DNA of 16,095 bases from positions 1 through 16,095 of the forward strand of contig NW_003314523.1 of assembly GCF_000143415.4 (NCBI RefSeq). The letters are read 5' to 3'. This document shows positions 1-16,095 of this stretch, piece after piece. This DNA comes from Selaginella moellendorffii. Taxonomy: Eukaryota; Plantae; Lycopodiophyta. The translations under genes were made by a program, and so were the position numbers. The notes under the pieces are model-generated. The model was not told the origin of the DNA, made no database searches, and worked only from the letters and a program-made list of their open reading frames with translations. Within the stretch, counting starts at the first letter, position 1. Each line of letters opens with the position of its first letter.

Positions 1-1660
1 ACAAAATGTTGCTCGTAACTGCAGTCGTCAATGTTTCTCGGCGAGATTGAACTTGATCTGGAATCATACAAGAGCTTGCTATGAATAGTTTGATCTAGGC
101 GCGAACCTTAGTTAGCGGTGGAATTGCTGTCTCCATACCTCGAGATTTTTCTCGAACGAAGGTTCCAACGCGATTGTAGAAAAGCTTGCCCTGGGGTCAA
201 GCTCGTACCTTGACACTGGACTCATCTGCGAGCTCCCATTCTCATCGTCGGTCGCACAGAGAGCTTAATCCGATGGAAGATAGGGGCGGCGGATTTGCGT
301 CGGTCAGCCTCTTCGAGCATCGGATCGCCCCATTGTTGTGAGAGCCTAGTCTAGCCAGTGAAGAAAAATATCTTACTGAAAGAAAGATCACATTGACCAT
401 CTGGAGGTGTTGGATCACATAAAATCCTGGAGTATTCTTCTTGTTACGTTCGATCCAAGCCGATCAAACGTCTTGGATGTAGAGGTTGTCTGGAAGACAA
501 TCCTAGCAGCCTGGCAGCATGACACCTGATCTCTCTGTCAAGAACTCCTATGGAAGTGCTTAAGCCTTGGTTCCCGCAAACTCCTCGTGGCGATTCGGTT
601 TAAGCGGTCTACCAGCCTTCTCGCAATCTGGCTGCCGGATTGGCTTCAGTTCACTACGAGGCATGTCCTCCGTTTTCTAGTGTCTAGACAAGGCGGCGCC
701 AGCAAAGCTAAGTTAAGTTCGCGCGGTTACTTCATCTGACTTTTCAGAAGATCGTTCCAGCTCAGGAGTTTAATCCTTGCGAAGTTTGGAAGGATCCTCC
801 AAACCTTCTGAATCCTAACACAGGAAATCTAAAGTGAGACCTCGAGATCAAATAAAGCAACACGTAAAAGACTTGAAAACCTGGTCGTGCTTGTCGCTTA
901 AATCGTCCTTTTGGAGAGCATCGTCCAGTGAGTTGTCAAGAAAGCTCAGATACTTCCCAAGAAAGCTCCCCTTCACCTCGCCAAGTTTCTGCTTAGACAC
1001 TTCATGCTTGAGCCTCTGCTTCTGCAGAAAGTTGTCAAGCGCAACCCGGTCACGCTCCATGGCTTCTTTCACATTTCCAAGAAAGAAGCGCCTCTCCTTC
1101 TCTTTTTCCTTTTCGAGAGACTCCTGCTTCGTGAAATCTCTCTTCATCGTTTCTGGAAGCTGAGAACACGCAACCGAATCAATACTTCCGACCTAGAAAA
1201 CTATATCTAAGTGTCACCTTCGTGGTTTTGGGACCTTCCAGCGCTGGTGCTGTCTGATCCTCTTGCTTTGCAGTCGCTACATTCGTTCTTGCTGAAATAA
1301 CCTTGCCATCGTCCAAACCTTTGGTTCTCACGCTTTGTAGAGCTATCCTGTTCTCTATATTCTCCTGGCATTGAGAGCATACGCAGATATCCAGCAAGCT
1401 TCGAAGACGTCCTTCCGCGGCCTATAAAGAAGAAAGAAGAAATAAAACGATGGTCTAAACTCAAGAAAGAAGGAGCCTTCGACCAACCTTAGCAGAAGCT
1501 TCCATGTTCAAAGCATTCTCCTCCGAGTCGATGAGCGCCTCAATCTCTTTGAGAAGCTTTAACTTCTCACGAGAGAACCCCGCCAAGTCCCACAGCTCCA
1601 GCTGCCTCTTCTTGTTCATCAAATCCCCACCGTGATCCTTCTTCGACCCGACCCTGGACC
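1..1660. repeat. Direct repeat, left copy (partner 14444-16095)
   Basis: Near-identical sequence recurs at an offset of about 14.44 kb (ORFs 1207..1464 and 15642..15899 are identical), with indels and one non-homologous block (about 735-876 vs about 15115-15311). Confidence 0.95.
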
Positions 1661-1982
1661 AAGCTGCCCTGTTCGACCAAGGATTCGATAGGAAGCCCTT
1701 CCCATTCACCGACATTGTCCGAAGAGCATTGGCCTGGAGCGCGCGGAGAAAGTTTGGATCGTGCGGTGGTGGTGAGTGATTGAGCTGCCGGAGGGAGAGG
1801 AGTGAGGAAGGGTGAGGAAGTAAAGGAGGAGGAGGAGGAGTGGCGACATTGATGTCGCTGGAGATCTTCTTGCGCTTGGCGGTGCCGGCGCCAGGCCTCC
1901 ACTCCATAGCCACGCGCGAGAAGGGCCACTGGAAACCCTCTACCCTGAAATGCCTCTTCTTGACGCCATTGAGAGCTTCCAT
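770..1982 (-). CDS. Uncharacterised spliced gene, family copy A (about 340 aa; Pro-rich N-terminal part, CxCxxC motif, charged coiled-coil-like C-terminal half). Exons 1982-1488, 1421-1218, 1159-881 and probably 814-770
   Basis: ORFs 1461..1982, 1179..1397 and 848..1147 join in phase 0 across GT-AG introns: 1487-1422 (66 nt, AAG|GTTGGT...TTCTTCTTTATAG), 1217-1160 (58 nt, AAG|GTGACA...TTCTCAG) and 880-815 (66 nt; an alternative acceptor at 829 would give a different last exon). Spliced product: MEALNGVKKRH...MEASAK|AAEGRLRSLLDICVCSQCQE...GPKTTK|LPETMKRDF...SDKHDQ|DSEGLEDPSKLRKD*. No family recognised. Confidence 0.6.
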
Positions 1983-2109
1983 GGCTGGATCATGCTCGCG
2001 CTACCCCGAGAGCATTGCGCCGCCGGAGCTGCCGCCACTCTGTTCGCGTGACAATGTTATAGCAGTTAGTCGTTAAACCTGGAAATGGTCTGCTGCCACG
2101 GCCACCATG

Positions 2110-2279: not shown

Positions 2280-3188
2280 AGGGCGGGAATAAATTTAAAA
2301 ACATGAATATTCGTTTCTTCTTCATTGCTTCGTTGCGAGGGTTTTTTGTGTGGAGGAAGTGCGATGGCGGGCAAAAGCTCGACGAGGGCAGCCGACAACG
2401 AGAAGAAGGGGAAGAGGAGAATGCCGAGGAAGGAACATCGCGGGATCAGTGAATCCCAACGGCAGCGCCAGGACAAGGAAAGGGCCAAGGCTCAAGCTGC
2501 GCAAGGTGAAATTTCGTGCAATCTCTCCCGAAATATCTCTCCCTCACTCTCAATCTCTCCCTCACACTCGAAATCTTGGCAAAGATTCTCTCTTTCTCTC
2601 TCGATCTCTGAAATCTTGCTGTTTCAGAGAAGAAGACGCGCGGGAACGATGCAGAGAGAGGAGCAGGATGAGGCCGCGAGCTCGTGGTGCTGTGAGATCG
2701 TCGAAAGAAAGGGCGCGAGGCCATGTATCGAGCGGCAATCTGTTGTCATTTTGTGAATTTGATCCAAGGCGGCTGACTTTCATCCTACATTCTCCCACTG
2801 CCTGGTCCGGGCGCTTAGCCGCGAGAGTTCTCTCTCGATCGAGCGATTTCCAAGCCAACGCCGCCGCGGATGGAGCTTGCGCTCGGATTTCTGCCGCACC
2901 AGTGGCTGGATTTCGATTCTGGGAGGGAAGAATGTAGCATCGACAGAAATTTTTAAAAATATTTAGGGTACAATTGTCCATGGCGGCCGCGTCTTGGATC
3001 GCACAGCGCGCTCCCGCTCGGAATGGCGCCAGGGCGAGCTTGGAATCCCCAGTTCTTGGTGGCGCCACGGCGAGCTCCATCGGATGGCCGCTTTGCTACT
3101 GCGGGAGCAAGTCGGATGGCATCTCGTTTTCACTGTAAGTCATTCTCGTTTGTGCTTGAGCTTGGAGTCGCGAGTGTGTGAGCGCTTG

Positions 3189-3520
3189 TGCTAGGGTATG
3201 CTGCTGATGGTGTTCCCGGTGTGCCTGGTTTTACAGCTCTGAAACTTATGAGGAAGCACGGCTCGCTAGAAAATCTAGTAAGTGCAGCGGCAATTCGGAC
3301 GGTTGTGAAGCCATACATGCAAGATGCTCTCAAGGAGCATTCCGTGTTGCTTGAGAAAAACTTGGAAGTTTTGTCCTTACGCAGGTAACTGGCTATTCTT
3401 TTCTAGCATGCCAGGTGATTTTCTTATTTCCTTTTTCTTGCAGAGATATTGACGTAGAGCTGGTGCTTGTCGAGGGATAAGTCAAGCGATCTTGCTGCAT
3501 TGAAGGAACTTGAAACGTTG
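3189..3520 (+). pseudogene. Fragment of an organellar 5'-3' exonuclease (OEX2-like, H3TH region), degraded copy
   Basis: LGYAADGVPGVPGF-TALKLMRKHGSLENL...VLSLRR. Relative to the 8076 copy, GD has become GY and GRK is deleted (9 bp). A 59-nt intron at 3385-3443 is followed by a last exon that is frameshifted to a stop at 3478-3480. Confidence 0.8.
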
Positions 3521-3623
3521 CAGGTTGTTTAGCAGCGGTGAACTGATCAGGCTCAAGGTATGAAAATTTTGAGCTCGCTTTATCGTTTCTTACTACGGCC
3601 TTCGTAGAATCCATAGTCTGTCC

Positions 3624-5799
3624 TTGATGGAAGCGAAGGTTGGTCCACTTCTGCAGAAACCTCAGGGTCTTTCAAATGAAGTGTACAGACGAATGCAACG
3701 TCAGGGATTGAAACCAGCCATTGGCATTGTTGTTGGTGCTCTCAAGGTATGTAGAAGCATGAGAGATCTACAACTAGGCAGGAGAATGAACAGGGATGTT
3801 TCCGAGACAGGTGACTTCTCAAACATTATCGTCGCCAACATCCTGCTTGATCTGTACGCGAAATGCGGAAGCATGATAGATGCTCGTGGAACATTTGACA
3901 GCATGCCGCATCGCGATGTTGTCTCCTGGAATTCGATCGTACAGGGATATGATATGCACAGAGTGGAAATGGTGAAATGGCTCTACAGTTGTTTGCTCCT
4001 CTGGGAGACGAAGGGTACAAACCGGATCGAGTATCAGTTCCTGGTGCTCTCAAGGCTTGTTCCAGCTTGATAGAGAAGGATTCCGGGCAGGCTTTGGATG
4101 GTCAACGGGTGGTATTCTTAGAGAGGAGCAGGGAGATTCACAGGAAAGCAGTAAAACTTGGCTTAGACTCGGATCTCTTCGTCGCGAGCACCTTGATTGA
4201 TCTTTACGCAAAATGTGGGAGCTTGACAGAGGCTCGTCGAGTTTTCGAAGGAATGAGCCATCGTAGTGTGGTGACATGGAACTGCATGATTCTCGGGTAT
4301 GCCAGCAGCGGCGAGGGTGGTGAAGCTCTCGATATCTATGCTCGAATGCGTCGTGGAGACACTCCACCGGATGCTTTAACTTTCATCGCAGCGCTGAAAG
4401 CTTGTTGCCGTCTTGCGGACGAGGAACTTGCCCATGCCCCGGCACGCATTCGTGGCATGTTTGTTCCCCCATCGATGGATCGATCAGTTGTTCATGGTGA
4501 AGAAGAAACGGAAGTCTTGAAGATTCAGAGCTTCGAAAAAGGAAGGGCCGTTCGCTTGGAAGCTGGTAAGCACTATTCAAACATCTTAGTGACCAACACA
4601 CTTGTGGAGTTCTATGCCAACTGTGGGAGCATGGTGGAGTCTCGCAGTTTCTTTGACAGTATTGAACGTCCAGACGTGGTTTCTTGGAACTGCCTCACTC
4701 TTGGTTATGCTCAGAACAGCAAAGGCGAGCAAGCTCTTGAGATATTCTTTAGCATGGACGAGAATGGTTGCGCTCCAGATCGTGTCACAGTTCTTGCTGC
4801 ACTAAAGGCCTGTGTCACCTTGGCTGAGAAGGAACAGGGCCAGATTGTCGACGGAGGCGTCGTTAAGCTTCGGGCTTTGCAGAGAGGCAAGGCCGTGCAT
4901 GCTCGAGCTCTCGCTTTTGTGGACGGAGAAGACCTCTCGGTTCATAATGCTCTCGTTGACATGTACGCCAAGTGTGGAGGCATGGTGGATGCTTGGCTGG
5001 TTTTCCAAGATATGGTGGTGCGACTTGGACGGGGATAATCCTGGGGTATGCTTGCGGCGGCCAGCACAAGCTCGTCTTACAATCGTTCGAAAGCATGCAA
5101 GAGGAAGGTGTTAAGGCAGATCATGTCACTGCTACTGCTGCATTTAAGGCTGTTGCGACTCTAGCAGAGAATGGAGACCGCAAGCTTGTGAAGAAATAGC
5201 TGGAGAAAGGCAGAGCTCTCCACTTGCAAGCCGCAAGGATTTGCGAACTGGATGACTACTTTTCGGTGGATATGTATACCAAGTGTCAAAGCACGGCGGA
5301 AGTCTTCACAGCATCAAAGGCCCCTTGATCTTGGGATATAGTCGGTTTGGAGAACCCGAGCGAGCTCTGGAGTTCTACACTCGGTTGCTGCACGAGAAAA
5401 GCTTGTAACCGGACGTACGTTGCTGCTCTCAAAGCCTGCGCTGAGCCTTGCAGCACTGGACTTCGGGCAGCAGATTCACGTACAAGCTTGCAGTGCTGGA
5501 TTGGATACAGAGGCATCGGTGGGAAGTTCTTTCTCTCAAAACGAGGCGCTCAAAGAGCGTGGCCTTGCAAGGTGGACGCGGTGGTGTGGATGGCATTCTT
5601 AAGTTCGTGCCTCAAGTGGAGAAATGTGGAGCTTGGCAGGATGGCCTTCAAGTCGGTTCTCAAGCTCGACGATGGAACAGGCTCTGCGTACTCTCTCACG
5701 TCCAACATCTATGCCCGAGGTCAGTCGGATTTACAACTCCAACATCATAGGAAACAGTTGTTGGAACGATTTAATGCTTCTTTTAACAGGAAGGCATGA
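3624..5799 (+). pseudogene. PLS-class pentatricopeptide repeat (PPR) gene with a C-terminal E domain and no DYW; disrupted
   Basis: Repeated motifs: LLDLYAKCGSMIDAR..FDSMPHRDVVSWN, LIDLYAKCGSLTEARRVFEGM..SVVTWNCMILGY, PDALTFIAALKAC, ALVDMYAKCGG. E-domain: DAVVWMAFLSSCLKWRNVELG..AYSLTSNIYA. Disruptions: frameshift from a GATAT duplication at 3946-3955, frameshift near 5015, in-frame TAG at 5197-5199, and further frameshifts after 5300. Confidence 0.9.
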
Positions 5800-6462
5800 A
5801 GAGAAAGGAACAGAACACAAGCGAAGAACAAGGATAAAGCAAGGAGAGGGGAAGCGGTTTAAAGGTATGTAATCGTTGCCTAATCCTACAACAAAGCATG
5901 GAAGTTTCTGGTCCCATTGGCCCCCGATGTTTATCATTTTCTCGCTCAACATGCCTTTGTGACCTTCCAACCAGCAGTGGCCTTGTTAAACAAACAGCTC
6001 CGCAAGCTTACCATGGATATGTCACTCATGTTGGTAGAGCCACAAACGCTCGTGTTTCCTCTCGTTTTTCTTCTGTCTTGCTTGGCTTGCATACTTTTCG
6101 TGTGTCGAATGAGCTTCCCTTCTTGCGAGTGAGTTCTTGAAGTGGCTGTCCAAAAGGCTTAAAATGACATGTTGTCTGGTTTTTTGTAAAATTTGCGTCA
6201 CTTGGCTTGTAGAAACTTTGTTCAATCCATGAATTTGCGACAGGAAGGAGAGCGCTTGAACGTGGATGATGGTGTGCTTTGGATCAACGTAGCCAGTGGA
6301 AGTTAGAAAAATGGAAGAACGAGGTGAAAACATTGACAGCGAAAGAAAGCTTTTTGATCCAGGTTTGCGGATACGGTGAAAAAACTCAGTTTTGGTGGTG
6401 TAGTAACTTTTTGACTTGGCTGTGATGTAGGGTTGAACACGCAACAAATAAAAGGGAAAGAG

Positions 6463-6512
6463 TTGACGGCTTATAAATTCCCACACTCTAGGATTTTGGG
6501 AATTTAGGGTTT
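6463..6512 (+). promoter_or_regulatory. Putative core promoter of protease gene copy 1: TGACG, TATAAAT (6472-6478) and telo-box TTTAGGGTTT (6503-6512) abutting ATG 6514
   Basis: The motifs are seen directly and are conserved before copy 2 (TATA 9793-9799). The telo-box is also kept in the diverged copy 3 (13207-13216). Confidence 0.5.
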
Positions 6513-6513
6513 G

Positions 6514-7539
6514 ATGGCAGAAACTTTTGGAAGGCTATCTGGGGATCATGGGTTGGAGAGGAAAATCAATGTTTTTTGGGATTCTGGTTGTGACCGTGAT
6601 ATTATCTCACAGAAATTAGTAGATGAATTCAATATTACTGTGGACAGTAATTCACAAGTTAAAGATTTCAAGTTTATGGTGGAGGATTGTGAATTTAAAA
6701 CAAGTTTGACTGTAAAACCATTGATTCTTGATCATGATATAATTTTGGGTTCACCTTGGATACATCAACATTGCTTAGAGTTAGACTGCAGTGGCACTAT
6801 AAACAGTTTAACTTTTGAGGTCAATAATTCTATATATTGCCTCAAGGAGATTGATGGTGCCCTTGATGATCACTACCAATTATATAAGTGCAGAAAATAC
6901 AAGAGAATAAATCAACATATATGTACTACTTTTCATTATGCAGAATACAGTGGGAGAATCAATGATCATCACATCACAATTGAATTTGATAATGGTTCTG
7001 ATTGGTCAGCTATATCACTTCAACTTCTCAAGAAACTTGGGCTCAAAGCAATTCGTGATTACAAGTATTTTACAAAAAGATTAACTGCAGATGTGCAAAT
7101 GAAAGATGGTTATGGAATTGAGAATTTAACGTATAAAATGGGAAGCTTTTCAGAAAGTACAGATTTTATTGGTATAAAAGAGAATATAGATACCATAATT
7201 TTGGGGATGAATTGGCTTAAGAAGCACTCAGCAATAATTGACTTCAGGAATCATATTGTTACTTTTAAATCTAGTGAATTGGGTTGCTGGTATAGACTTC
7301 AATATCCAAATGGTGTATTTGAAGTCAGTAAAGATAGATTTGTTACAGAGACAGATAGTTTATGTTGGTGCCACCAAAAAAAAAGGGCCTCAGTTTTGGT
7401 TATGGCAAAGGCAAGCAAGTGGATAAGAATGGTTCTCCAAATCACATCACAATTCTTACTGCACAGGATCAGATTGTTGACCAATACATTGTTAAGCTTG
7501 GAGTTTTTGAGTTCTAAAGGCAAAGCCGTGCATGCTTGA
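6514..7539 (+). CDS. Tandem double retropepsin-like (A2 / Ty3-gypsy-type) aspartic protease domain protein, copy 1
   Basis: Domain 1: INVFWDSGCDRDIISQKLV...HDIILGSPWIHQHCLELD. Domain 2: GRINDHHITIEFDNGSDWSAISLQLLKKLGL...TIILGMNWLKKHSAIIDFRNHIVTF. Both carry the hydrophobic-D-x-G and IILG-x-x-W retropepsin signatures. Intronless and AT-rich; ATG at 6514 (the ORF track starts at a TTG). Confidence 0.8.
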   Translation: MAETFGRLSGDHGLERKINVFWDSGCDRDIISQKLVDEFNITVDSNSQVKDFKFMVEDCEFKTSLTVKPLILDHDIILGSPWIHQHCLELDCSGTINSLTFEVNNSIYCLKEIDGALDDHYQLYKCRKYKRINQHICTTFHYAEYSGRINDHHITIEFDNGSDWSAISLQLLKKLGLKAIRDYKYFTKRLTADVQMKDGYGIENLTYKMGSFSESTDFIGIKENIDTIILGMNWLKKHSAIIDFRNHIVTFKSSELGCWYRLQYPNGVFEVSKDRFVTETDSLCWCHQKKRASVLVMAKASKWIRMVLQITSQFLLHRIRLLTNTLLSLEFLSSKGKAVHA

Positions 7540-7598
7540 GCTCTGGCTTTTGTGGACCAAGGGGACCTCTCTCGTGGTCATATACCTCTCTGGACATG
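7387..7598 (+). pseudogene. PPR gene remnant homologous to 4692-4963, overlapping the protease 3' end
   Basis: gcctcagttttggttatggcaaaggcaagcaag...aaggcaaagccgtgcatgcttgagctctggcttttgtggac...gacatg aligns to gcctcactcttggttatg...ggcaaggccgtgcatgctcgagctctcgcttttgtggac...gacatg. Confidence 0.85.
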
Positions 7599-7946
7599 AG
7601 TCATAACATAAATTGTTTTATATTTTGATTCTGTTTGAATAAATATTATCACAAGTAGAAATAATTTGCTACACATTGCTACATTCAATGCTTAATTTGT
7701 TTAATAGTACTGTTAGATGGTAGAATATCCTAGAATATTCAAGCATATTCTAGGTATAATCACTATCCCCTTATAGGTTTGGTTAAGCAAACAAATAATT
7801 TGGTGCCCGTTGCATGCAATAATACTTAATTCTTAATAGTAATATTATTCTTATATATTAATCCATTTGATCAAAGAAACGTTTATAATTATAAAGATAT
7901 TGATAATTTATAGACACAAGATTAATCTTATTTAATATCAACCATT

Positions 7947-8450
7947 TGGTCGTTTCACACTGTCAAGGATTACGTTGAACAACACAAACGCGAGCCTGGG
8001 ATTGAATTGGGACTTCGTATATATCCAGTTTCGTGAGTTTGGCTGATTATTTCTTCTTGTTTTTTTCTTTCCAAGGATGCTTGCTAGGGGATGCTGCTGA
8101 TGGTGGTCCCGGTGTGCCTGGTTTTGGACGGAAAACAGCTCTGAAACTTATGAGGAAGCACGGCTCGCTAGAAAATATATTAAGTGCAGCGGCAATTCGA
8201 GCGGTTGGGAAGCCATACATACAAGATGCTCTCAAAGAGCATTCCGTGTTGCTTGAGAAAAACATGGAAGTTTTGTCCTTACGCAGGTAACTGGCTATTC
8301 TTTTCTAGCATCCAGGTGATTTTCTTATTTCCTTTTTCTTGCAGAGATATTAACGTAGAGCTACCAGTTGAGTGGTGCAGGGATAAGTCAAACGATCTTG
8401 CTGCATTGCAGTGGCTGGAGAAAGAACTTGAAATGCTGCATCGTGTCTAA
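7947..8450 (+). pseudogene. OEX2: 5'-truncated organellar 5'-3' exonuclease (OEX2/At1g34380-like). Exons 7947-8016, 8076-8286, 8345-8450
   Basis: The spliced product WSFHTVKDYVEQHKREPGIELGLR|CLLGDAADGGPGVPGFGRKTALKLMRKHGSLENILSAAAIRAVGKPYIQDALKEHSVLLEKNMEVLSLRR|DINVELPVEWCRDKSNDLAALQWLEKELEMLHRV* matches, from recall, the C-terminal H3TH region of plant OEX2. Introns 8017-8075 (59 nt) and 8287-8344 (58 nt) restore the frame. The N-terminal nuclease domain is absent. Confidence 0.8.
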
Positions 8451-8453
8451 AGA

Positions 8454-8602
8454 GAGGTATCTGGCTATTCGTTTCTAGCATCCAGGTGATTTTTATATAT
8501 TTTCTTGCAGAGATATTGACGTAGAGCTGGTGCTTGTCGAGGGATAAGTCAAGCGATCTTGCTGCATTCCAATGGCTGGAGAAGGAACTTGAAACGTTGC
8601 AG
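8454..8602 (+). repeat. Tandem duplicate of the last intron and last exon of the exonuclease (copy of about 8285-8440), frameshifted
   Basis: aggtatctggctattcgtttctagcatccaggtgattt...ttcttgcagagatattgacgtagagct...gataagtcaagcgatcttgctgcatt repeats 8285-8410. Confidence 0.85.
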
Positions 8603-8683: not shown

Positions 8684-9080
8684 CCTTGATGGAAACAAAG
8701 GTTGGTCCCATTTGTATCTTATGCCACAGAAGAAAACGCAGAAAAAAACCAAGAGCTTGATAGAGAGGATTCCGGGCAGGCTTTAGATGGTCGATGGCTG
8801 GATACAGAGGCATCGGTGGGAAGTTCTCTCGCTCAAAACGAGGCGCTCAAAGAGCGTGGCCTTGCAAGGCGGACGCGTTGGTGTATTCTTAAGTTCGTGC
8901 CTCAAGTGGAGAGATGTGGAGCTTGGCTGGATGGCCTTCAAGTCGGTTCTCAAGCTCGACGACGGAACAGGCTCTGCGTACTCTCTCACGTCCAACATCT
9001 ATGCCCGAGGTCAGTCGGATTTACAACATCGTGGGAAACAGTTGTGGGTAAGTTATAATGCTTTTTTTAACAGGAAGGCA
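8684..9080 (+). pseudogene. Internally deleted copy of the PPR pseudogene
   Basis: Mosaic of 3622-3647, a novel stretch of about 45 bp, 4064-4103, and then 5497-5797 (E domain). About 1.8 kb of the PPR array is missing. Confidence 0.85.
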
Positions 9081-9841
9081 TGGGGACTCAAGAGAAACGA
9101 GCAGAACACAAGCAAAGAACAGCGAAGAACAAGGATAAAGCAAGGAGAGGGGAAGCGGTTTAAAGGTATGTAATCGTTGCGTAATCCTACAGCAAAGCAT
9201 GGAAGTTTCTGGTCCCATTGGCCCCCAATGTTCATCATTTTCTCGCTCAGCATGCCTTCCAACCAGCAGTGGCCTTGTTAAACAAGCAGCTCCGCAAGCT
9301 TACCATGGATTTGTCACTCATGTTGGTAGAGCCACAAAAGTTCGTGTTTCCTCTCGTTTTTCTTCTGTTTTGCTTGCTTGCATACTTTTCGTGTGTCGAA
9401 TGAGCTTCCCTTATTCTGGCTGTCCAAAAGGTTTAAAATGCCATGTTGTCTGGATAATTTGCGTGACTTGTCTTGTAGAAACTTTGTTTAATCCATGAAT
9501 TTGCATCTTACACGACAGGAAGGAGAGCGCTTGAACGTGGATGATGGTGTGCTTTGGATCAACGTAGCCAGTGGAAGTTAGGAAAATGGAAGAACGAGGT
9601 AAAAACATTGACAGCAAAAGAAATGATCCTGTGATCTCCAGGTTTGCGGACACTGGAAACACTCGGTCTCGGTGATGAGGTTACTTTTTGGCGCAACAAG
9701 GACATCGATGTTCACTTGGTTGCTAACAAGAGGATGTTCTCAAGCTCAAAGGGTTGAACACGTAACAAATAAAAGGGAAAGAGTTGACGGCTTATAAATT
9801 CCCACACTCTAGGATCTATAGGGTAGGGAATTTAGGGTTTG

Positions 9842-10888
9842 ATGGCAGAAACTTTTGGAAGGCTATCTGGGGATCATGGGTTGGAGAGGAAAATCAATGT
9901 TTTTTGGGATTCTGGTTGTGACCGTGATATTATCTCACAGAAATTAGTAGATGAATTCAATATTACTGTGGACAGTAATTCACAAGTTAAAGATTTCAAG
10001 TTTATGGTGGAGGATTGTGAATTTAAAACAAGTTTGACTGTAAAACCATTGATTCTTGATCATGATATAATTTTGGGTTCACCTTGGATACATCAACATT
10101 GCTTAGAGTTAGACTGCAGTGGCACTATAAACAGTTTAACTTTTGAGGTCAATAATTCTATATATTGCCTCAAGGAGATTGATGGTGCCCTTGATGATCA
10201 CTACCAATTATATAAGTGCAGAAAATACAAGAGAATAAATCAACATATATGTACTACTTTTCATTATGCAAAATATAGTGGGAGAATCAATGATCATCAC
10301 ATCACATTTGTATTTGATAATGGTTCTGATTGGTCAGCTATATCACTTCAACTTCTCAAGAAACTTGGGCTCAAAGCAATTCGTGATTACAAGTATTTTA
10401 CAAAAAGATTAACTGCAGATGTGCAAATGAAAGATGGTTATGGAATTGAGAATTTAACTTATAAAATGGGAAGCTTTTCAGAAAGTACAGATTTTATTGG
10501 TATAAAAGAGAATATAAATACCATATTTTTGGGGATGAATTGGCTTAAGAAGCACTCAGCAATAATTGACTTCAGGAATCATATTGTTACTTTTAAATCT
10601 AGTGAATTGGGTTGCTGGTATAGACTTCAATATCCAAATGGTGTATTTGAAGTCAGTAAAGATAGATTTGTTACTGAGACAGATAGTTTATGTTGGTGCC
10701 ACCAAAAAAAAAGGGCCTCAGTCTTGGTTATGGCAAAGGCAAGCAAGCTCTGGAGCAATTCTTTAGGATGGACAAGAATGGTTCTCCAAATCACATCACA
10801 ATTCTTACTGCACAGGATCAGATTGTTGACCAATACATTGTTAAGCTTGGAGTTTTTGAGTTCTAAAGGCAAAGCCGTGCATGCTTGA
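9842..10888 (+). CDS. Tandem double retropepsin-like aspartic protease domain protein, copy 2
   Basis: Same as 6514-7539: domain 1 identical, 5 amino-acid changes in domain 2, and a 7-aa in-frame indel in the PPR-derived tail. ATG at 9842. Confidence 0.8.
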   Translation: MAETFGRLSGDHGLERKINVFWDSGCDRDIISQKLVDEFNITVDSNSQVKDFKFMVEDCEFKTSLTVKPLILDHDIILGSPWIHQHCLELDCSGTINSLTFEVNNSIYCLKEIDGALDDHYQLYKCRKYKRINQHICTTFHYAKYSGRINDHHITFVFDNGSDWSAISLQLLKKLGLKAIRDYKYFTKRLTADVQMKDGYGIENLTYKMGSFSESTDFIGIKENINTIFLGMNWLKKHSAIIDFRNHIVTFKSSELGCWYRLQYPNGVFEVSKDRFVTETDSLCWCHQKKRASVLVMAKASKLWSNSLGWTRMVLQITSQFLLHRIRLLTNTLLSLEFLSSKGKAVHA

Positions 10889-10947
10889 GCTCTGGCTTTT
10901 GTGGACCAAGGGGACCTCTCTCGTGGACATATACCTCTCTGGACATG
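10715..10947 (+). pseudogene. PPR gene remnant homologous to 4692-4963, overlapping the 3' end of protease copy 2
   Basis: gcaaaggcaagcaagctctggagcaattctttaggatggacaagaatggtt aligns to gcaaaggcgagcaagctcttgagatattctttagcatggacgagaatggtt (4719-4769). Confidence 0.85.
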
Positions 10948-11038
10948 AGTCATAACATAAATTGTTTTATATTTTGATTCTGTTTGAATAAATATTATCA
11001 TAAGTAAATATAATTTGCTACACATTGCTACATTTAAT

Positions 11039-11640
11039 GCTTAGTTTGTTTAATAGTAGTGTTATTTCTATAAATTAATCCAATTGATCAATTAAAGTTC
11101 ATAATTATAAACATGTTGATAATTTATAAACACAAGATTAATCATAGTAGAATAAACTAGAATATACTAGAAAGTGTTTAGAAAAATTTATAATCTAAAA
11201 ACATATTTATAAATTAGAGATACAAGATTAGTCTAAATGAATAACAACTGTTAGATGGTAGAATATCCTAGAATATCCAAGCATATTCTAGGTATAATCA
11301 CTATCCCCTTATAGGTTTGGTTAAGCAAACAAATAATTTGGTGCACGTTGCATGCAATAATACTTAATTTGCTTAATAGTAATTTATTAATCCATTTGGT
11401 CAAAGAAACGTTTATAATTATAAAGATATTGATAATTTATAGACACAAGATTAATCTTATTTAATATCAACCATTTGAATGTAGAATAAACTAGAATATA
11501 TTAAGAAGTGTTTAAGAAAGTTTACAGATTAATTCAAATGAATAACAACTGTTAGAAAATATCTTAAAATATCCAAGCATATTTTAGATATATCCACTAC
11601 CTTTCTACAGGTTTGTTTATGAAAACAAAAAATTTAGATA
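11039..11640. repeat. Degenerate AT-rich tandem repeat, about two units of roughly 280-330 bp
   Basis: These blocks each occur twice, in the same order: 'tataattataaa..ttgataatttata.acacaagattaatc', 'tagaataaactagaatata' and 'aaatgaataacaactgttaga..aatatccaagcatatt'. Confidence 0.75.
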
Positions 11641-12510: not shown

Positions 12511-13206
12511 TCAAAATGAGCACCAACACAAACTACTCATCTCTTTGCCAAATCTATCTTTACTTGCTTCATATATACCAGATGGGTATTGAAATCTATA
12601 CCAACAATCCAACTCTTTGGATATAAAAGTAACAATATGATTCCTGTAGTTAATTATTGCTGAGTGATTATGAAGCCAGTCAATCCCAAGAAATATGGTT
12701 TCTCTATAATCTTCTAGACCAATAAAATTTCTTCTTTCTAAAAAGTTTAATTATAACATACCAATTCCATAACTTTCATTTGAACTTATGGAGTTAGTCT
12801 TTCTGCAAAATACTTGGAATCGTGAACTACTTTAACCCCGAGTTTCCCGATAAGTATTCCAGAACTTGCACAACCATTATCTATTTCAATTCTGATTTTC
12901 TGATCATTGATTCTCCCACAGTATGTATATGTTGATTTATTCTCTTGTATTTTCTAGACTTAGATAAGTTGCAATCACCCATGAGGCAATATGTAGTCCT
13001 CAAATGTTAAAGTATTTATTATGCCATTGCAGTCTAACTCTAAGTAGTGTTTATGTATCCAAAGTGAACCCAAAATTATATTATAATCAAGAATCATTAG
13101 TAATACAGTCAAAGTTCTCATAACTTCACTCATAAACTTTGAGTTACTGTTAATAGTAATATTAAACTCATCCACCAACTTCTCATCTTTCAAGCCTTTT
13201 GCTATC
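12511..13206 (-). pseudogene. Diverged, inverted third copy of the double-retropepsin gene
   Basis: The reverse strand reads KLVDEFNIT..ILDYNIILGSLWIHKHYLELDC, GRINDQKIRIEIDNGCASSGI and ETIFLGIDWLHNHSAIINYRNHIVTF..LDCWYRFQYPSGIYEASKDRFGKEMSSLCWCSF* (TGA 12511-12513). ATG has become ATA, the first DSG motif is deleted, and there are frameshifts and an internal stop. Confidence 0.88.
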
Positions 13207-13419
13207 AAACCCTAAACTTACAAATTTTATGGATTTCACCAGCAGGGCTTTTGCTAGTCAACAACTTACACATGGTTCCACCATACGAGGAGAATAGCAA
13301 TAAAGAACTTTCTCGAGTTTTCCAATTGTTGGTTGGCAGCACGCAGCATTCAAAGAACGTACCCTAATTTACCTTAAGAAACCACCAGTACATGCAATCT
13401 TTCTCTGGCATCGGAAAAA

Positions 13420-14317
13420 TTAGTCCGTTACACTCGGGCACGAGCTCCAAAAATTTTCAAGCGGCTCCATGATGATCATTCCGGGATATGCCTCGATCGT
13501 GTTCCAACGTCGCTCAAAGCTCCTCGAGTTCACCAGCTTGCTCTGGCCACGATTCGTATACGTCGCGAATAGCCTCTCGGGTTTAAGTTTCTGCTTAGAC
13601 GCTTCATGCTTGAGCCTCTGCTTCTGCAGAAAGTTGTCAAATGCAACCCGGTCACGCTCCATAGCTTCTTTCACATTTCCCAGAACGAAGCGCCTCTCCT
13701 TCTCTCTTTACTTTTCGGTAGAGCTATCCTGTTCTCTATATTCTCCTGGCATTGAGAGCATACGCAGATATCCAGCAAGCTTCGAAGACGTCCTTCCGCG
13801 GCCTATAAAGAAGAAAGAAGAAATAAAACGATGGTCTAAACTCAAGAAAGAAGGAGCCTTCGACCAACCTTAGCAGAAGCTTCCATGTTCAAAGCATTCT
13901 CCTCCGAGTCGATGAGCGCCTCAATCTCTTTGAGAAGCTTTAACTTCTCACGAGAGAACCCCGCGAAGTCCCACAGCTCCAGCTGCCTCTTCTTGTTCAT
14001 CAAATCCCCACCGTGATCCTTCTTCGACCCGAGCGTGCTCTGGACCCTGGACCAAGCTGCCCTGTTCGACCAAGGATTCGATAGAAAGCCCTTCCCATTC
14101 ACCGACATTGTCCGAAGAGCATTAGCCTGGAGCGCACGGAGAAAGTTTGGTACCGGGGGCAAGTGAGGAGGAGTGAGGAAGGGTGAGGAGGTAAAGGAGG
14201 AGGAGAAGGAGTAGCGACATTGATGTCCCTGGAGATCTTCTCGCGCTTGGTCGAGAAGGGCCACTGGAAAGCCTCTGCCCTGAAATGCCTCTTCTTGACG
14301 CCATTGAGAACTTCCAT
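13420..14317 (-). pseudogene. Decayed copy A' of the uncharacterised gene family
   Basis: Homologous to about 984-2095. Exon 1 has frameshifting deletions, and a deletion of about 220 bp (equivalent to 1116-1336) near 13717 removes intron 2 and shifts the frame. The sequence is non-homologous below about 13583. Confidence 0.85.
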
Positions 14318-14443
14318 GGCCGGATCATGCTCGCGCTACCACCGAGGCTGCCGGAGCTGCTGCCACTCGCAGTTAGTTGTTAAACCTGGAAATGTCCCGC
14401 TGCCATCTCAAGTCGAAGTATATTCGTTCATTTGAAATTTAAA

Positions 14444-16095
14444 ACAAAAATGTTTGCCTCGTAAACTTCCGGAGATACAGAAAACTCGGCAGTTCGTCAA
14501 TGTTTCTCGGCGAGATTGGACTTGATCTGGAATCATACAAGAGCTTGCTATGAATAGTTTGATCTAGGCGCAAACCTTAGTTAGCGGTGAAATTGCTCTG
14601 TCTCCATACCTCGAGATTTTTCTCGAACGAAGGTTCCAACGCGATTGTAGAAAAGCTTGCCCTGGGGTCAAGCTCGTACCTTGACACTGGACTCATTCTC
14701 GAGCTCCCATTCTCATCGTCGGTCGCACAGAGAGCTTAATCCGATGGAAGATGGATTTGCGTCGGTCAGCCTCTTCGAGCATCGGATCGCTGAAAGAAAG
14801 ATCACATTGACCATCTGGAGGTGCTGGATCACATAAAATCCTGGAGTATTCTTCTTGTTACGTTCGATCCAAGCCGATCAAACGTCTTGGGTGTAGAGGT
14901 TGTCTGGAAGACAATCCTAGCAGCCTGGCAGCATGACACCTGATCTCTCTGTCAAGAACTCCTATGGAAGTGCTTAAGCCTTGGTTCCCACAAACTCCTC
15001 GTGGCGATTCGGTTTAAGCGGTCTACCAGCCTTCTCGCAATCTGGCTGCGGGATTGGCTTCAGTTCACTACGAGGCAATGTCCTCCGTTTTCTAGTGTCT
15101 TCGCGGTTACTTCCGCCTCCTCGTGGAACCCGAGAAGTTTACCACCTCTGGGGTGAGTTATGGCGATTGGTGCTCTTAGGGAGAGGAGATTGGATTCTTT
15201 GCGATAAACAATAAGTTGCAACCACAAGAGGGATGGTTCCAAAATTGAGTCCATCACTTTAAAAAACAGATCCTTGGAGCTCCTTCCAAGCGGCGATCTC
15301 CGGGTCCACGGAAACCTGGTCGTGCTTGTCGCTTAAATCGTCCTTTTGGAGAGCATCGTCCAGTGAGTTGTCAAGAAAGCTCAGATACTTCCCAAGAAAG
15401 CTCCCCTTCACCTCGCCAAGTTTCTGCTTAGACACTTCATGCTTGAGCCTCTGCTTCTGCAGAAAGTTGTCAAGCGCAACCCGGTCACGCTCCATGGCTT
15501 CTTTCACATTTCCAAGAAAGAAGCGCCTCTCCTTCTCTCTTTCCTTTTCGAGAGACTCCTGCTTCGTGAAATCTCTCTTCATCGTTCCTGGAAGCTGAGA
15601 GCACGCAACCAAAGCAATACTTCCGACCTAGAAAACTATATCTAAGTGTCACCTTCGTGGTTTTGGGACCTTCCAGCGCTGGTGCTGTCTGATCCTCTTG
15701 CTTTGCAGTCGCTACATTCGTTCTTGCTGAAATAACCTTGCCATCGTCCAAACCTTTGGTTCTCACGCTTTGTAGAGCTATCCTGTTCTCTATATTCTCC
15801 TGGCATTGAGAGCATACGCAGATATCCAGCAAGCTTCGAAGACGTCCTTCCGCGGCCTATAAAGAAGAAAGAAGAAATAAAACGATGGTCTAAACTCAAG
15901 AAAGAAGGAGCCTTCGACCAACCTTAGCAGAAGCTTCCATGTTCAAAGCATTCTCCTCCGAGTCGATGAGCACCTCAATCTCATTGAGAAGCTTTAACTT
16001 CTCACGAGAGACCCCGCGAAGTCCCACAGCTCCAGCTGCCTCTTCTTGTTCATCAAATCCCCACCGTGATCCTTCTTCGACCCGACCGTGCTCTG
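14444..16095. repeat. Direct repeat, right copy (partner 1-1660)
   Basis: See the left copy. Confidence 0.95.
15259..16095 (-). CDS. Copy A'' of the uncharacterised gene, 5' end beyond the window. Exons >16095-15923, 15856-15653, and 15594 to 15316 or 15259
   Basis: Same splice sites as copy A at offset +14435. One base is missing near 16011 (gagagacccc vs gagagaacccc), which is either a real frameshift or a contig-end error. Confidence 0.5.

What the first reader, a model, noticed from the sequence alone, without database searches (positions are those of the whole stretch)
6514..7370. Stand-alone single-chain 'double retropepsin': two Ty3/gypsy-type protease domains fused, with no other retroelement genes
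Seen: two consecutive retropepsin-like domains (FWDSG...IILGSPW and FDNGS...IILGMNWL) form one intronless ORF, and no gag, RT, RNase H, integrase or LTR is recognisable anywhere in the window. Known: A2 retropepsins work as homodimers with one Asp from each chain; bilobed pepsins (A1) are thought to have arisen by duplication and fusion of such a unit; domesticated retropepsins such as DDI1 and ASPRV1 carry a single protease domain. Inference: this could be a domesticated, covalently linked pseudo-dimeric aspartic protease, an independent replay of the retropepsin-to-pepsin transition in a plant. I know of no named plant family with this architecture.
Basis: partly seen in the sequence, partly recalled or inferred. 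Interest (0 to 1): 0.85.

Follow-up and report, generated by a model that had tools for sequence, protein, structure and literature searches.

The report
Two-lobed retrotransposon-type protease in spikemoss
An open reading frame, likely from a spikemoss, joins two retrotransposon-type protease halves that are predicted to fold into one pepsin-like active site, but this copy is likely a silenced, decaying member of a small gene family, and a natural two-in-one chain of this kind has already been crystallised from a bacterium.

Summary
The two-domain ORF is real. It runs 6514-7539 (341 aa). Only lobe 2 passes Pfam cut-offs, but a Ty3/gypsy protease profile scores both lobes (41 and 61 bits; shuffles at most 8.9). 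No gag, RT, RNase H or integrase was found in the window. Lobe 1 keeps DSG but lacks the ~16-residue flap; lobe 2 is full-length with DNG. A complex prediction pairs the lobes with both catalytic loops at the interface (0.63 vs best control 0.03; may be from memory of solved homodimers). The unit is strongly CpG-depleted, no RNA read was laid past about codon 33-50, and no two-lobed relative was found outside this plant. Signs of past coding constraint exist. Best reading: a once-constrained, stand-alone, single-chain retropepsin gene, likely silent and decaying here (0.45). A live domesticated protease remains possible (0.25). The architecture is not new (PDB 9iy9); a retroelement-derived plant version with one flapless lobe appears to be.

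The parts
6514..7539 (+). Copy 1 ORF, 341 aa: two retropepsin lobes, a 30-aa family extension and a read-through tail
6514..6852 (+). Lobe 1 (about residues 1-113): DSG at 6580, IILG at 6739; flap hairpin absent
   Evidence: model matches AMV protease 1mvp_A, Z 8.9, rmsd 2.7, 89 aligned
6853..6930 (+). Linker of about 26 residues, low model confidence
   Evidence: pLDDT under 50 at 112-141
6931..7281 (+). Lobe 2 (about residues 140-256): DNG at 6988, IILG at 7195; flap-length segment present
   Evidence: Pfam RVP_2 36.2 bits, gag-asp_proteas 36.3 bits; Ddi1 4rgh_A Z 12.9, rmsd 3.2, 123 aligned
7282..7371 (+). C-terminal family extension ending in CWC, shared with copy 3, which stops two codons later
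7387..7539 (+). PPR-gene fragment read off-frame as the protein tail, behind an A9 run; homologous to 4692-4938
6503..6512 (+). Telo-box-type motif (reverse orientation) directly before the ATG; the only three such 10-mers in the window lie at the three copies
6361..6428 (+). Small GT..AG intron; spliced RNA enters the 5' end of the ORF at low depth
   Evidence: 2 and 3 reads in X17 and X18, 0 in X19; reads may come from a paralogue
9842..10888 (+). Copy 2 ORF, 348 aa; 8 differences in the 858-nt core, one in-frame 21-nt indel in the tail
12511..13224 (-). Copy 3, broken: about 72% nt identity, the DSG region has no counterpart, 8 gaps (3 not multiples of three), 2 aligned stops; keeps its own terminal stop
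5502..7715 (.). First unit of a tandem duplication (second unit 8799-11064, 90% identical) carrying PPR 3' sequence and the ORF
7659..7948 (.). AT-rich repeat of about 300 nt behind copy 1 (two units behind copy 2, 11010-11635), with a 26-nt near-palindrome
   Evidence: many contigs lie on 7709-7750

Best explanation
The ORF encodes two fused retropepsin lobes, likely of Ty3/gypsy origin and predicted to fold into one intramolecular active site, and it is likely a silenced, decaying copy of a once-constrained stand-alone gene family confined to this plant lineage. Shown: two homologous lobes, flap loss in lobe 1, DNG in lobe 2, three copies, a PPR-derived tail, CpG depletion. Predicted: Asp23 and Asp159 face each other across a canonical retropepsin interface, so one chain would make the whole enzyme, covered by the single flap of lobe 2. 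That is the asymmetry of pepsin with the lobes swapped. Inferred: the ancestor began at this ATG and ended just after CWC (about 288 aa), was kept open by selection for much of its history, then multiplied within a methylated, repeat-rich unit. Copies are now decaying, and copies 1 and 2 lost the stop and read into a captured PPR fragment.
For: Architecture. Pairing: score 0.63 (three runs 0.62-0.63), best of 3 controls 0.03. The mark was reached by 51 of 78 solved and 2 of 108 mismatched microbial pairs, and by 39 of 65 and 2 of 126 in eukaryotes. Runs agree in at least 75% of contacts, partner pLDDT at least 77. The interface holds residues 157-162 (DNG loop) and 21-27 (DSG loop). Like homodimers are solved, so the pass may be from memory. 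Stand-alone ancestor: the start motif is shared by all three copies and copy 3 has its own stop. Past constraint: all 8 gaps fall in copy 3, and a neutral lineage stays open with P 0.022 at 0.115 substitutions per site. A gap-free 84% identical relative in X15 keeps DSG, with 8 silent of 18 listed changes out of 24 (hand count; P 0.012-0.14). Decay and silencing: CpG o/e 0.13, 0.09 and 0.19 in the three copies against 0.73-0.83 in three neighbouring coding stretches. 12 of 14 CpGs of the PPR counterpart are changed in the tail. True gene-body methylation is judged absent in lycophytes (PMC5410703, passages). Copy 3 and P0003 are degraded. Raw RNA reads of 3 runs (one study, 9.2 million records each) gave depth 0 over 6612-7924, against 0.5-4.8 on 6410-6611 and up to 61 on the flanks (weak, see against).
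Against: Between the tandem copies the ORF is better kept than its flanks: core 8/858 with no gap, upstream 64/877 with 12 gaps, downstream 7/176 (Fisher P 0.007 core vs downstream). This fits ongoing selection, though silent sites are also low (3/163), so gene conversion fits too. A spliced sense transcript reaches the ATG. The RNA blank is soft: only 12% of each run was read, the tissue is unknown, and the lay drops human-like records. X15 holds 0.59 of the words but only 6429-6669 was laid at high identity. Evidence for past constraint is modest: copy 1 vs 3 dN/dS is 0.65 (0.42-1.02), a control frame gave 0.63, and changes by codon position were 36/42/45. The full-chain AlphaFold model did not place the lobes as in two-lobed structures (pTM 0.45; rmsd 13.8-15.6 A to 9iy9 and tethered HIV protease), with an alignment that covered lobe 2 only.
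Confidence: 0.45

Rival explanations
1. A live domesticated host gene: an active monomeric protease using Asp23 and Asp159 with one flap, expressed only in tissues or stages not sampled (spores, gametophyte, stress).
For: Two intact copies with lower divergence than the flanks and only an in-frame indel. Telo-box at the start, a motif enriched in plant 5' UTRs (PMC3022908, passages). Spliced RNA reaches the ATG. Both Asp residues are kept and predicted to pair. DNG also occurs in a Ty3/gypsy-type protease, P0007, and DCG in 8 of 21 element proteases.
Against: No read laid on 6612-7924 (weak). CpG erosion. Lost stop and off-frame tail. No two-lobed homologue among 1.84 billion representatives: 8 hits, of which 1 is a fragment of this family, 6 are single-domain matches and 1 is a rearranged element model with two near-identical proteases. 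dN/dS between copies 1 and 2 is not significant (5/695 vs 3/163, P 0.18). Asn after the Asp lacks the Thr/Ser hydroxyl of the fireman's grip (PMC11313796, passages).
Confidence: 0.25
2. Cargo of a mobile unit, never host-selected: the AT-rich, CpG-poor block (ORF, PPR fragment, 300-nt repeats) is a non-autonomous element, and the frame was kept open by element-level selection, for example supplying protease in trans.
For: Sharp CpG-poor block, copies in both orientations, captured gene fragment, flanking multi-copy repeat. The nearest relatives are element proteases.
Against: No LTR pair, PBS, TIR or target duplication was recognised. Copies 1 and 2 arose by segmental duplication with their flanks. 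None of the 58 metagenome loci showed two protease motifs in the matched ORF by a simple motif count.
Confidence: 0.17
3. A made but catalytically dead or weak pseudo-protease: the lobes pair, or a flapless lobe pairs with protease monomers of active retrotransposons and poisons them, or it serves as a peptide-binding scaffold.
For: Each lobe has one defect (no flap; DNG), yet the fold and interface are predicted intact.
Against: Both catalytic Asp residues are kept, which a dead scaffold would not need. No expression of the body was seen.
Confidence: 0.13

Closest known systems
Ty3/gypsy (Metaviridae) polyprotein protease, Pfam RVP_2 PF08284 / gag-asp_proteas PF13975
   Same: Lobe 2 passes both cut-offs. 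Both lobes match a profile of 27 such domains. 6 of the 7 distant representative hits are of this type. P0007 shares DNG and is the best of these 7 for lobe 1.
   Different: Two lobes in one chain at only about 26% mutual identity; no gag/RT/RH/INT; lobe 1 flapless; identity to any element protease at most 36%.
PDB 9iy9, putative endopeptidase of Bacteroides fragilis (natural chain with two retropepsin-like units)
   Same: Top Foldseek hit (E 2e-8, 302 columns); VIA aligns model 1-252 to 184-437, Z 8.7.
   Different: 10-15% identity, rmsd 13.8-15.3 A to my unpaired model, 420 aa. No sequence link was found, so an independent origin is inferred.
Ddi1/DDI2 retroviral-like protease (MEROPS family number recalled as A28) and ASPRV1
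   Same: Best solved folds for lobe 2 (Z 12.9). The best single distant sequence hit is a Ddi1-like Tritrichomonas protein (29%, E 8.5e-7).
   Different: Single-lobed homodimers; no UBL/UBA here; Pfam Asp_protease 23.4 bits is under its cut-off of 26. A Ddi1-like origin is not excluded.
Pepsin family A1 (bilobed monomer)
   Same: Two lobes in one chain, one Asp each. Only one lobe has a flap: pepsin lobe 2 lost it (PMC2642776, passages); here lobe 1 lacks it. Lobe 1 of the model aligns to pepsin-family lobes at Z 5-6.7.
   Different: No Pfam pepsin match, no signal or propeptide seen, lobes of 113-120 residues still alignable in sequence, DNG in lobe 2.
Engineered tethered HIV-1 protease dimers (for example 1hvc, 2o40)
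   Same: Foldseek ranks 2-12: two retropepsin units in one chain.
   Different: Artificial, identical halves, two flaps.

Membership tests
Clan AA retropepsin-like fold | D[ST]G loop, helix, and hydrophobic-hydrophobic-Gly (ILG) psi-loop in each unit | tested here: met
   Both lobes have the Asp loop, helix and IILG; folds match at Z 8.9 and 12.9. Lobe 2 has N in place of S/T.
Clan AA retropepsin-like fold | Thr/Ser after each catalytic Asp (fireman's grip) | tested here: not met
   Lobe 1 DSG, lobe 2 DNG in all three copies. Natural element proteases also deviate: DCG 8 of 21, DNG in P0007.
Clan AA retropepsin-like fold | Flap hairpin over the active site | tested here: inconclusive
   Segment present in lobe 2 (70 residues Asp to ILG), absent in lobe 1 (54). 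Model confidence over the lobe 2 flap is low.
Ty3/gypsy LTR retrotransposon | Protease inside a gag-pol polyprotein with RT, RNase H and integrase | tested here: not met
   Six polyprotein tblastn queries hit only the protease part.
Ty3/gypsy LTR retrotransposon | LTRs, PBS, PPT | tested here: inconclusive
   None recognised around the ORF by repeat and motif scans; old LTRs could be missed.
Pepsin family A1 | Sequence match to A1 models; bilobed chain with signal and propeptide | tested here: not met
   No Pfam Asp match among the families returned; the only pepsin-family PDB sequence hit is plasmepsin at E 0.52.
Single-chain two-lobed retropepsins (9iy9 type) | Two retropepsin units in one chain that pair to form one site | tested here: inconclusive
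   Two units shown. Pairing is supported (possibly from memory) but not reproduced in the full-chain model.
Single-chain two-lobed retropepsins (9iy9 type) | Common descent with the bacterial family | tested here: inconclusive
   No sequence hit; TIGR02281 only 15-17 bits against a cut-off of 57.95.
Domesticated retropepsin host gene (DDI1/ASPRV1-like) | Full-length transcript | tested here: inconclusive
   Reads only to about 6611; none laid on 6612-7924; one study, and the filter caveat applies.
Domesticated retropepsin host gene (DDI1/ASPRV1-like) | Orthologues under purifying selection across species | tested here: inconclusive
   No orthologue found; paralogue tests are borderline. No other Selaginella genome could be searched as DNA.
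Domesticated retropepsin host gene (DDI1/ASPRV1-like) | Asp-dependent proteolytic activity | not testable with these tools
   Needs an assay.

The most novel reading that the evidence does not exclude
A lycophyte built a working monomeric aspartic protease from two retrotransposon protease units and, like pepsin, then discarded one flap (from lobe 1 instead of lobe 2): an independent, still traceable replay of both steps of the retropepsin-to-pepsin transition, symmetry fusion and symmetry breaking.
Probability: 0.22. Interest if true: 0.75.

Novelty: new variant of a known kind. Interest (0 to 1): 0.45.

Why it matters
Pepsins are thought to come from duplication and fusion of a single-lobed ancestor, and the direction is still argued (PMC2761423, passages). 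Natural two-lobed retropepsin chains exist (9iy9). A plant example from retroelement stock, in which one lobe has cleanly lost its flap, would let one test whether fusion frees a lobe to break symmetry. The protein can be expressed and assayed whether or not the plant still uses it. If it is only a relic, it is an unannotated, lineage-specific orphan family of modest interest.

Tried and rejected
No whole genome is held, so no genome-wide copy count or element map was possible. Homologue searches: 1 hit among 967 candidates at 187-597 aa; 0 among 1109 longer candidates; 0 among 3609 at 42-207 aa with the lobe alignment; neither ORF is in the 15-billion collection; none in viral contigs, metagenomes with the single protein, plasmids or phages. 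Run search: no RNA holder listed. RNA-guess contigs X1, X2 and X3 (two studies) were laid only up to 6640, 6669 and 6619; they stop at different places and a hole proves nothing. Single-sequence AlphaFold was useless (pLDDT 35). The tree of 23 protease domains was uninformative: both lobes sit on branches of about 2.5 and a lobe1+lobe2 clade was neither found nor rejected (p-AU 0.28). DNA-level similarity between the lobes is not above chance (74 of 500 shuffles), so a recent internal duplication or assembly slip was rejected. Atlas searches could use only stored homologues and said nothing on this protein. Giant-virus origin was considered: the top BFVD hit is a Klosneuvirus protease (rmsd 12), but PMC4083422 (passages) has no occurrence of 'protease' and lists two other Selaginella families, and the sequence hits are eukaryotic. 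The 27-sequence profile is partly circular because its loci were fished with this family's ILG motif; residues 1-75 of lobe 1, without that motif, still score 12.2 bits against a best shuffle of 6.2. Rows dropped: 43 of 59 loci had enough frame for a domain, 27 remained after a 90% identity filter, and 21 went into alignments A3-A5. Ten literature searches listed no paper on a plant two-lobed retropepsin; this library lacks most subscription papers, and no supplement was opened.

Full report
Observation. The ORF starts at ATG 6514 and runs to 7539 (341 aa), not to 7370. It is AT-rich (33% GC in the first 286 codons against 51% in the neighbouring PPR ORF), and an open frame of that length has a chance of about 1e-11 at this composition. 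It holds DSG (residue 23) with IILG (76), then DNG (159) with IILG (228). The source is likely Selaginella moellendorffii or a close relative. The only close protein hit is SELMODRAFT_424830, whose last 48 residues match residues 31-81 at 71% and whose other parts match elsewhere in the window. This is an inference; the source was not given.

Are there two domains? Pfam passes only lobe 2 (RVP_2 36.2 bits, gag-asp_proteas 36.3, Asp_protease_2 28.3). Lobe 1 alone reaches RVP_2 at E 0.011, below cut-off. Three other tests establish lobe 1. It resembles lobe 2 beyond shuffles (z 6.2-7.1). A profile of 27 protease domains from retroelement-type loci gives it 41.0 bits against a best shuffle of 8.9, and 12.2 against 6.2 without the motif used for fishing. 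AlphaFold, with an alignment covering only lobe 2, still folded lobe 1 at pLDDT 68-89 over residues 11-80, and that part superposes on AMV protease (Z 8.9, rmsd 2.7, 89 residues). The profile matches lobe 1 in two pieces and skips positions 43-59. Lobe 1 has 54 residues from the Asp to ILG, against 68-75 in 21 element proteases and 70 in lobe 2. By position the missing part is the flap. Pepsin lobe 2 is also thought to have lost its flap (PMC2642776, passages read).

Do the lobes pair? Given as two chains, they scored 0.63 against a best control of 0.03. The mark was reached by 51 of 78 solved and 2 of 108 mismatched microbial pairs, and by 39 of 65 and 2 of 126 in eukaryotes. The runs agree in at least 75% of contacts and the partner's pLDDT is at least 77. 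The interface contains both catalytic loops and the C-terminal strands, as in a canonical retropepsin dimer. Such dimers are solved, so the pass may show likeness only. The full-chain model did not reproduce the pairing: pTM 0.45, rmsd 13.8-15.6 A to two-lobed structures. DNG lacks the hydroxyl of the fireman's grip (PMC11313796, passages), but it occurs in the Ty3/gypsy-type protease P0007, and 8 of 21 element proteases have DCG. Activity is neither shown nor excluded.

Origin. Six full polyproteins hit the window only in their protease part, so the gene stands alone here. Against 1.84 billion representatives there were 8 hits: the Selaginella fragment, one Ddi1-like protein and six Ty3/gypsy-type proteins at 22-36%, all matching lobe 2. 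One of these has two near-identical proteases from a rearranged element. A Ty3/gypsy origin is likely and a Ddi1-like origin is not excluded; the tree did not resolve it. The lobes share no significant DNA similarity, so the fusion is old.

Copy 2 (9842-10888) lies in a tandem duplication, and a broken copy 3 lies inverted at about 13224-12511. Further diverged relatives appear in other runs. All three copies have a telo-box-type motif at the start, and copy 3 has its own stop two codons after the shared CWC. The ancestor was therefore likely a self-contained gene of about 288 aa. Copies 1 and 2 lack that stop and run through an A9 tract into PPR sequence read off-frame. All three copies are CpG-poor (o/e 0.09-0.19 against 0.73-0.83 in three neighbouring coding stretches). 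In the tail, 12 of 14 CpGs of the PPR counterpart are changed, 7 to TG or CA. Low GC alone does not force this: 7601-8000 has 28% GC and o/e 0.79. True gene-body methylation is judged absent in lycophytes (PMC5410703, passages), so long-term repeat-type methylation is the likely cause. This is inferred; no methylome was seen.

Selection. For past constraint: all 8 gaps between copies 1 and 3 are in copy 3, a neutral lineage would stay open with P 0.022 at half the divergence, and an 84% identical, gap-free relative shows 8 silent among 18 listed of 24 changes (hand count; P 0.012-0.14). Against: dN/dS is 0.65 (0.42-1.02), a control frame gave 0.63, and codon positions are nearly even. For present constraint: between copies 1 and 2 the core differs at 8 of 858 sites, against 64 of 877 upstream and 7 of 176 downstream. 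Silent sites are also low and the dN/dS test is not significant (P 0.18), so gene conversion fits as well.

Expression. In three raw RNA runs of one study (9.2 million records each, about 12% of each run), sense reads, a few of them spliced, reach the first codons at depth 0.5-4.8. None was laid on 6612-7924, while the flanks reach 10-61, largely from paralogues. This is weak evidence: the tissue is unknown and the tool drops some records. Run X15 holds 0.59 of the words, but only 6429-6669 was laid at high identity.

Comparison and novelty. The top structural hit is 9iy9, a natural Bacteroides chain aligned over both lobes, so the architecture is known. Earlier scan notes report it as common in bacteria and present in a fungus and a green alga; I checked only the 9iy9 part. 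No sequence link to that family was found, so this is likely a separate origin. Ten literature searches listed no description of a plant family of this kind. Papers seen as passages: PMC2761423, PMC2642776, PMC5410703, PMC11313796, PMC4083422, PMC3022908; abstract, outline and passages: PMC12239564; all others as search listings only. No supplements were opened.

Verdict. This is a real two-lobed retropepsin with one flapless lobe, predicted to form a single-chain active site. It is most likely a silent, decaying copy of a once-constrained lineage-specific family (0.45), with a live domesticated enzyme as the main rival (0.25). It is a new variant of a known kind; interest 0.45.

Noticed in passing
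window 3573-5799 (+): PPR gene with an E motif (PLS-class) broken into several ORFs in different frames; likely a pseudogene or frameshifted copy.
   Followed up: partly
window 3182-3505, 7947-8440, 8455-8601 (+): Repeated fragments of a 5'-3' exonuclease gene (Pfam 5_3_exonuc); the copy at 7947 lacks its 5' part relative to the RNA reads laid there, and one exon is duplicated in tandem (161-nt period).
   Followed up: partly
window 21-2098 vs 13718-16095: A second, roughly 14.4-kb-spaced duplication of an unannotated minus-strand gene related to SELMODRAFT_424830; no Pfam family found for its ORFs.
   Followed up: no
window 7659-7948 and 11010-11635: AT-rich repeat of about 300 nt with a near-palindrome; many contigs of other runs lie on it, so it is likely a dispersed repeat or element end.
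   Followed up: partly
L001:585-4856 (also L002-L004): A complete-looking Ty3/gypsy gag-pol polyprotein in a Methanosphaera metagenome-assembled genome; likely eukaryotic contamination of that bin.
   Followed up: partly
L009, L013, L015, L022, L025, L027, L035, L040: Retroelement-type proteases with Cys after the catalytic Asp (DCG), two of them (L009, L025) in long open frames with an RT motif, so the D[ST]G rule is not strict in this group.
   Followed up: partly
P0006 (Tanacetum gene model): Two near-identical RVP_2 domains separated by an RT fragment: a rearranged element that would look like a tandem protease in annotation.
   Followed up: no
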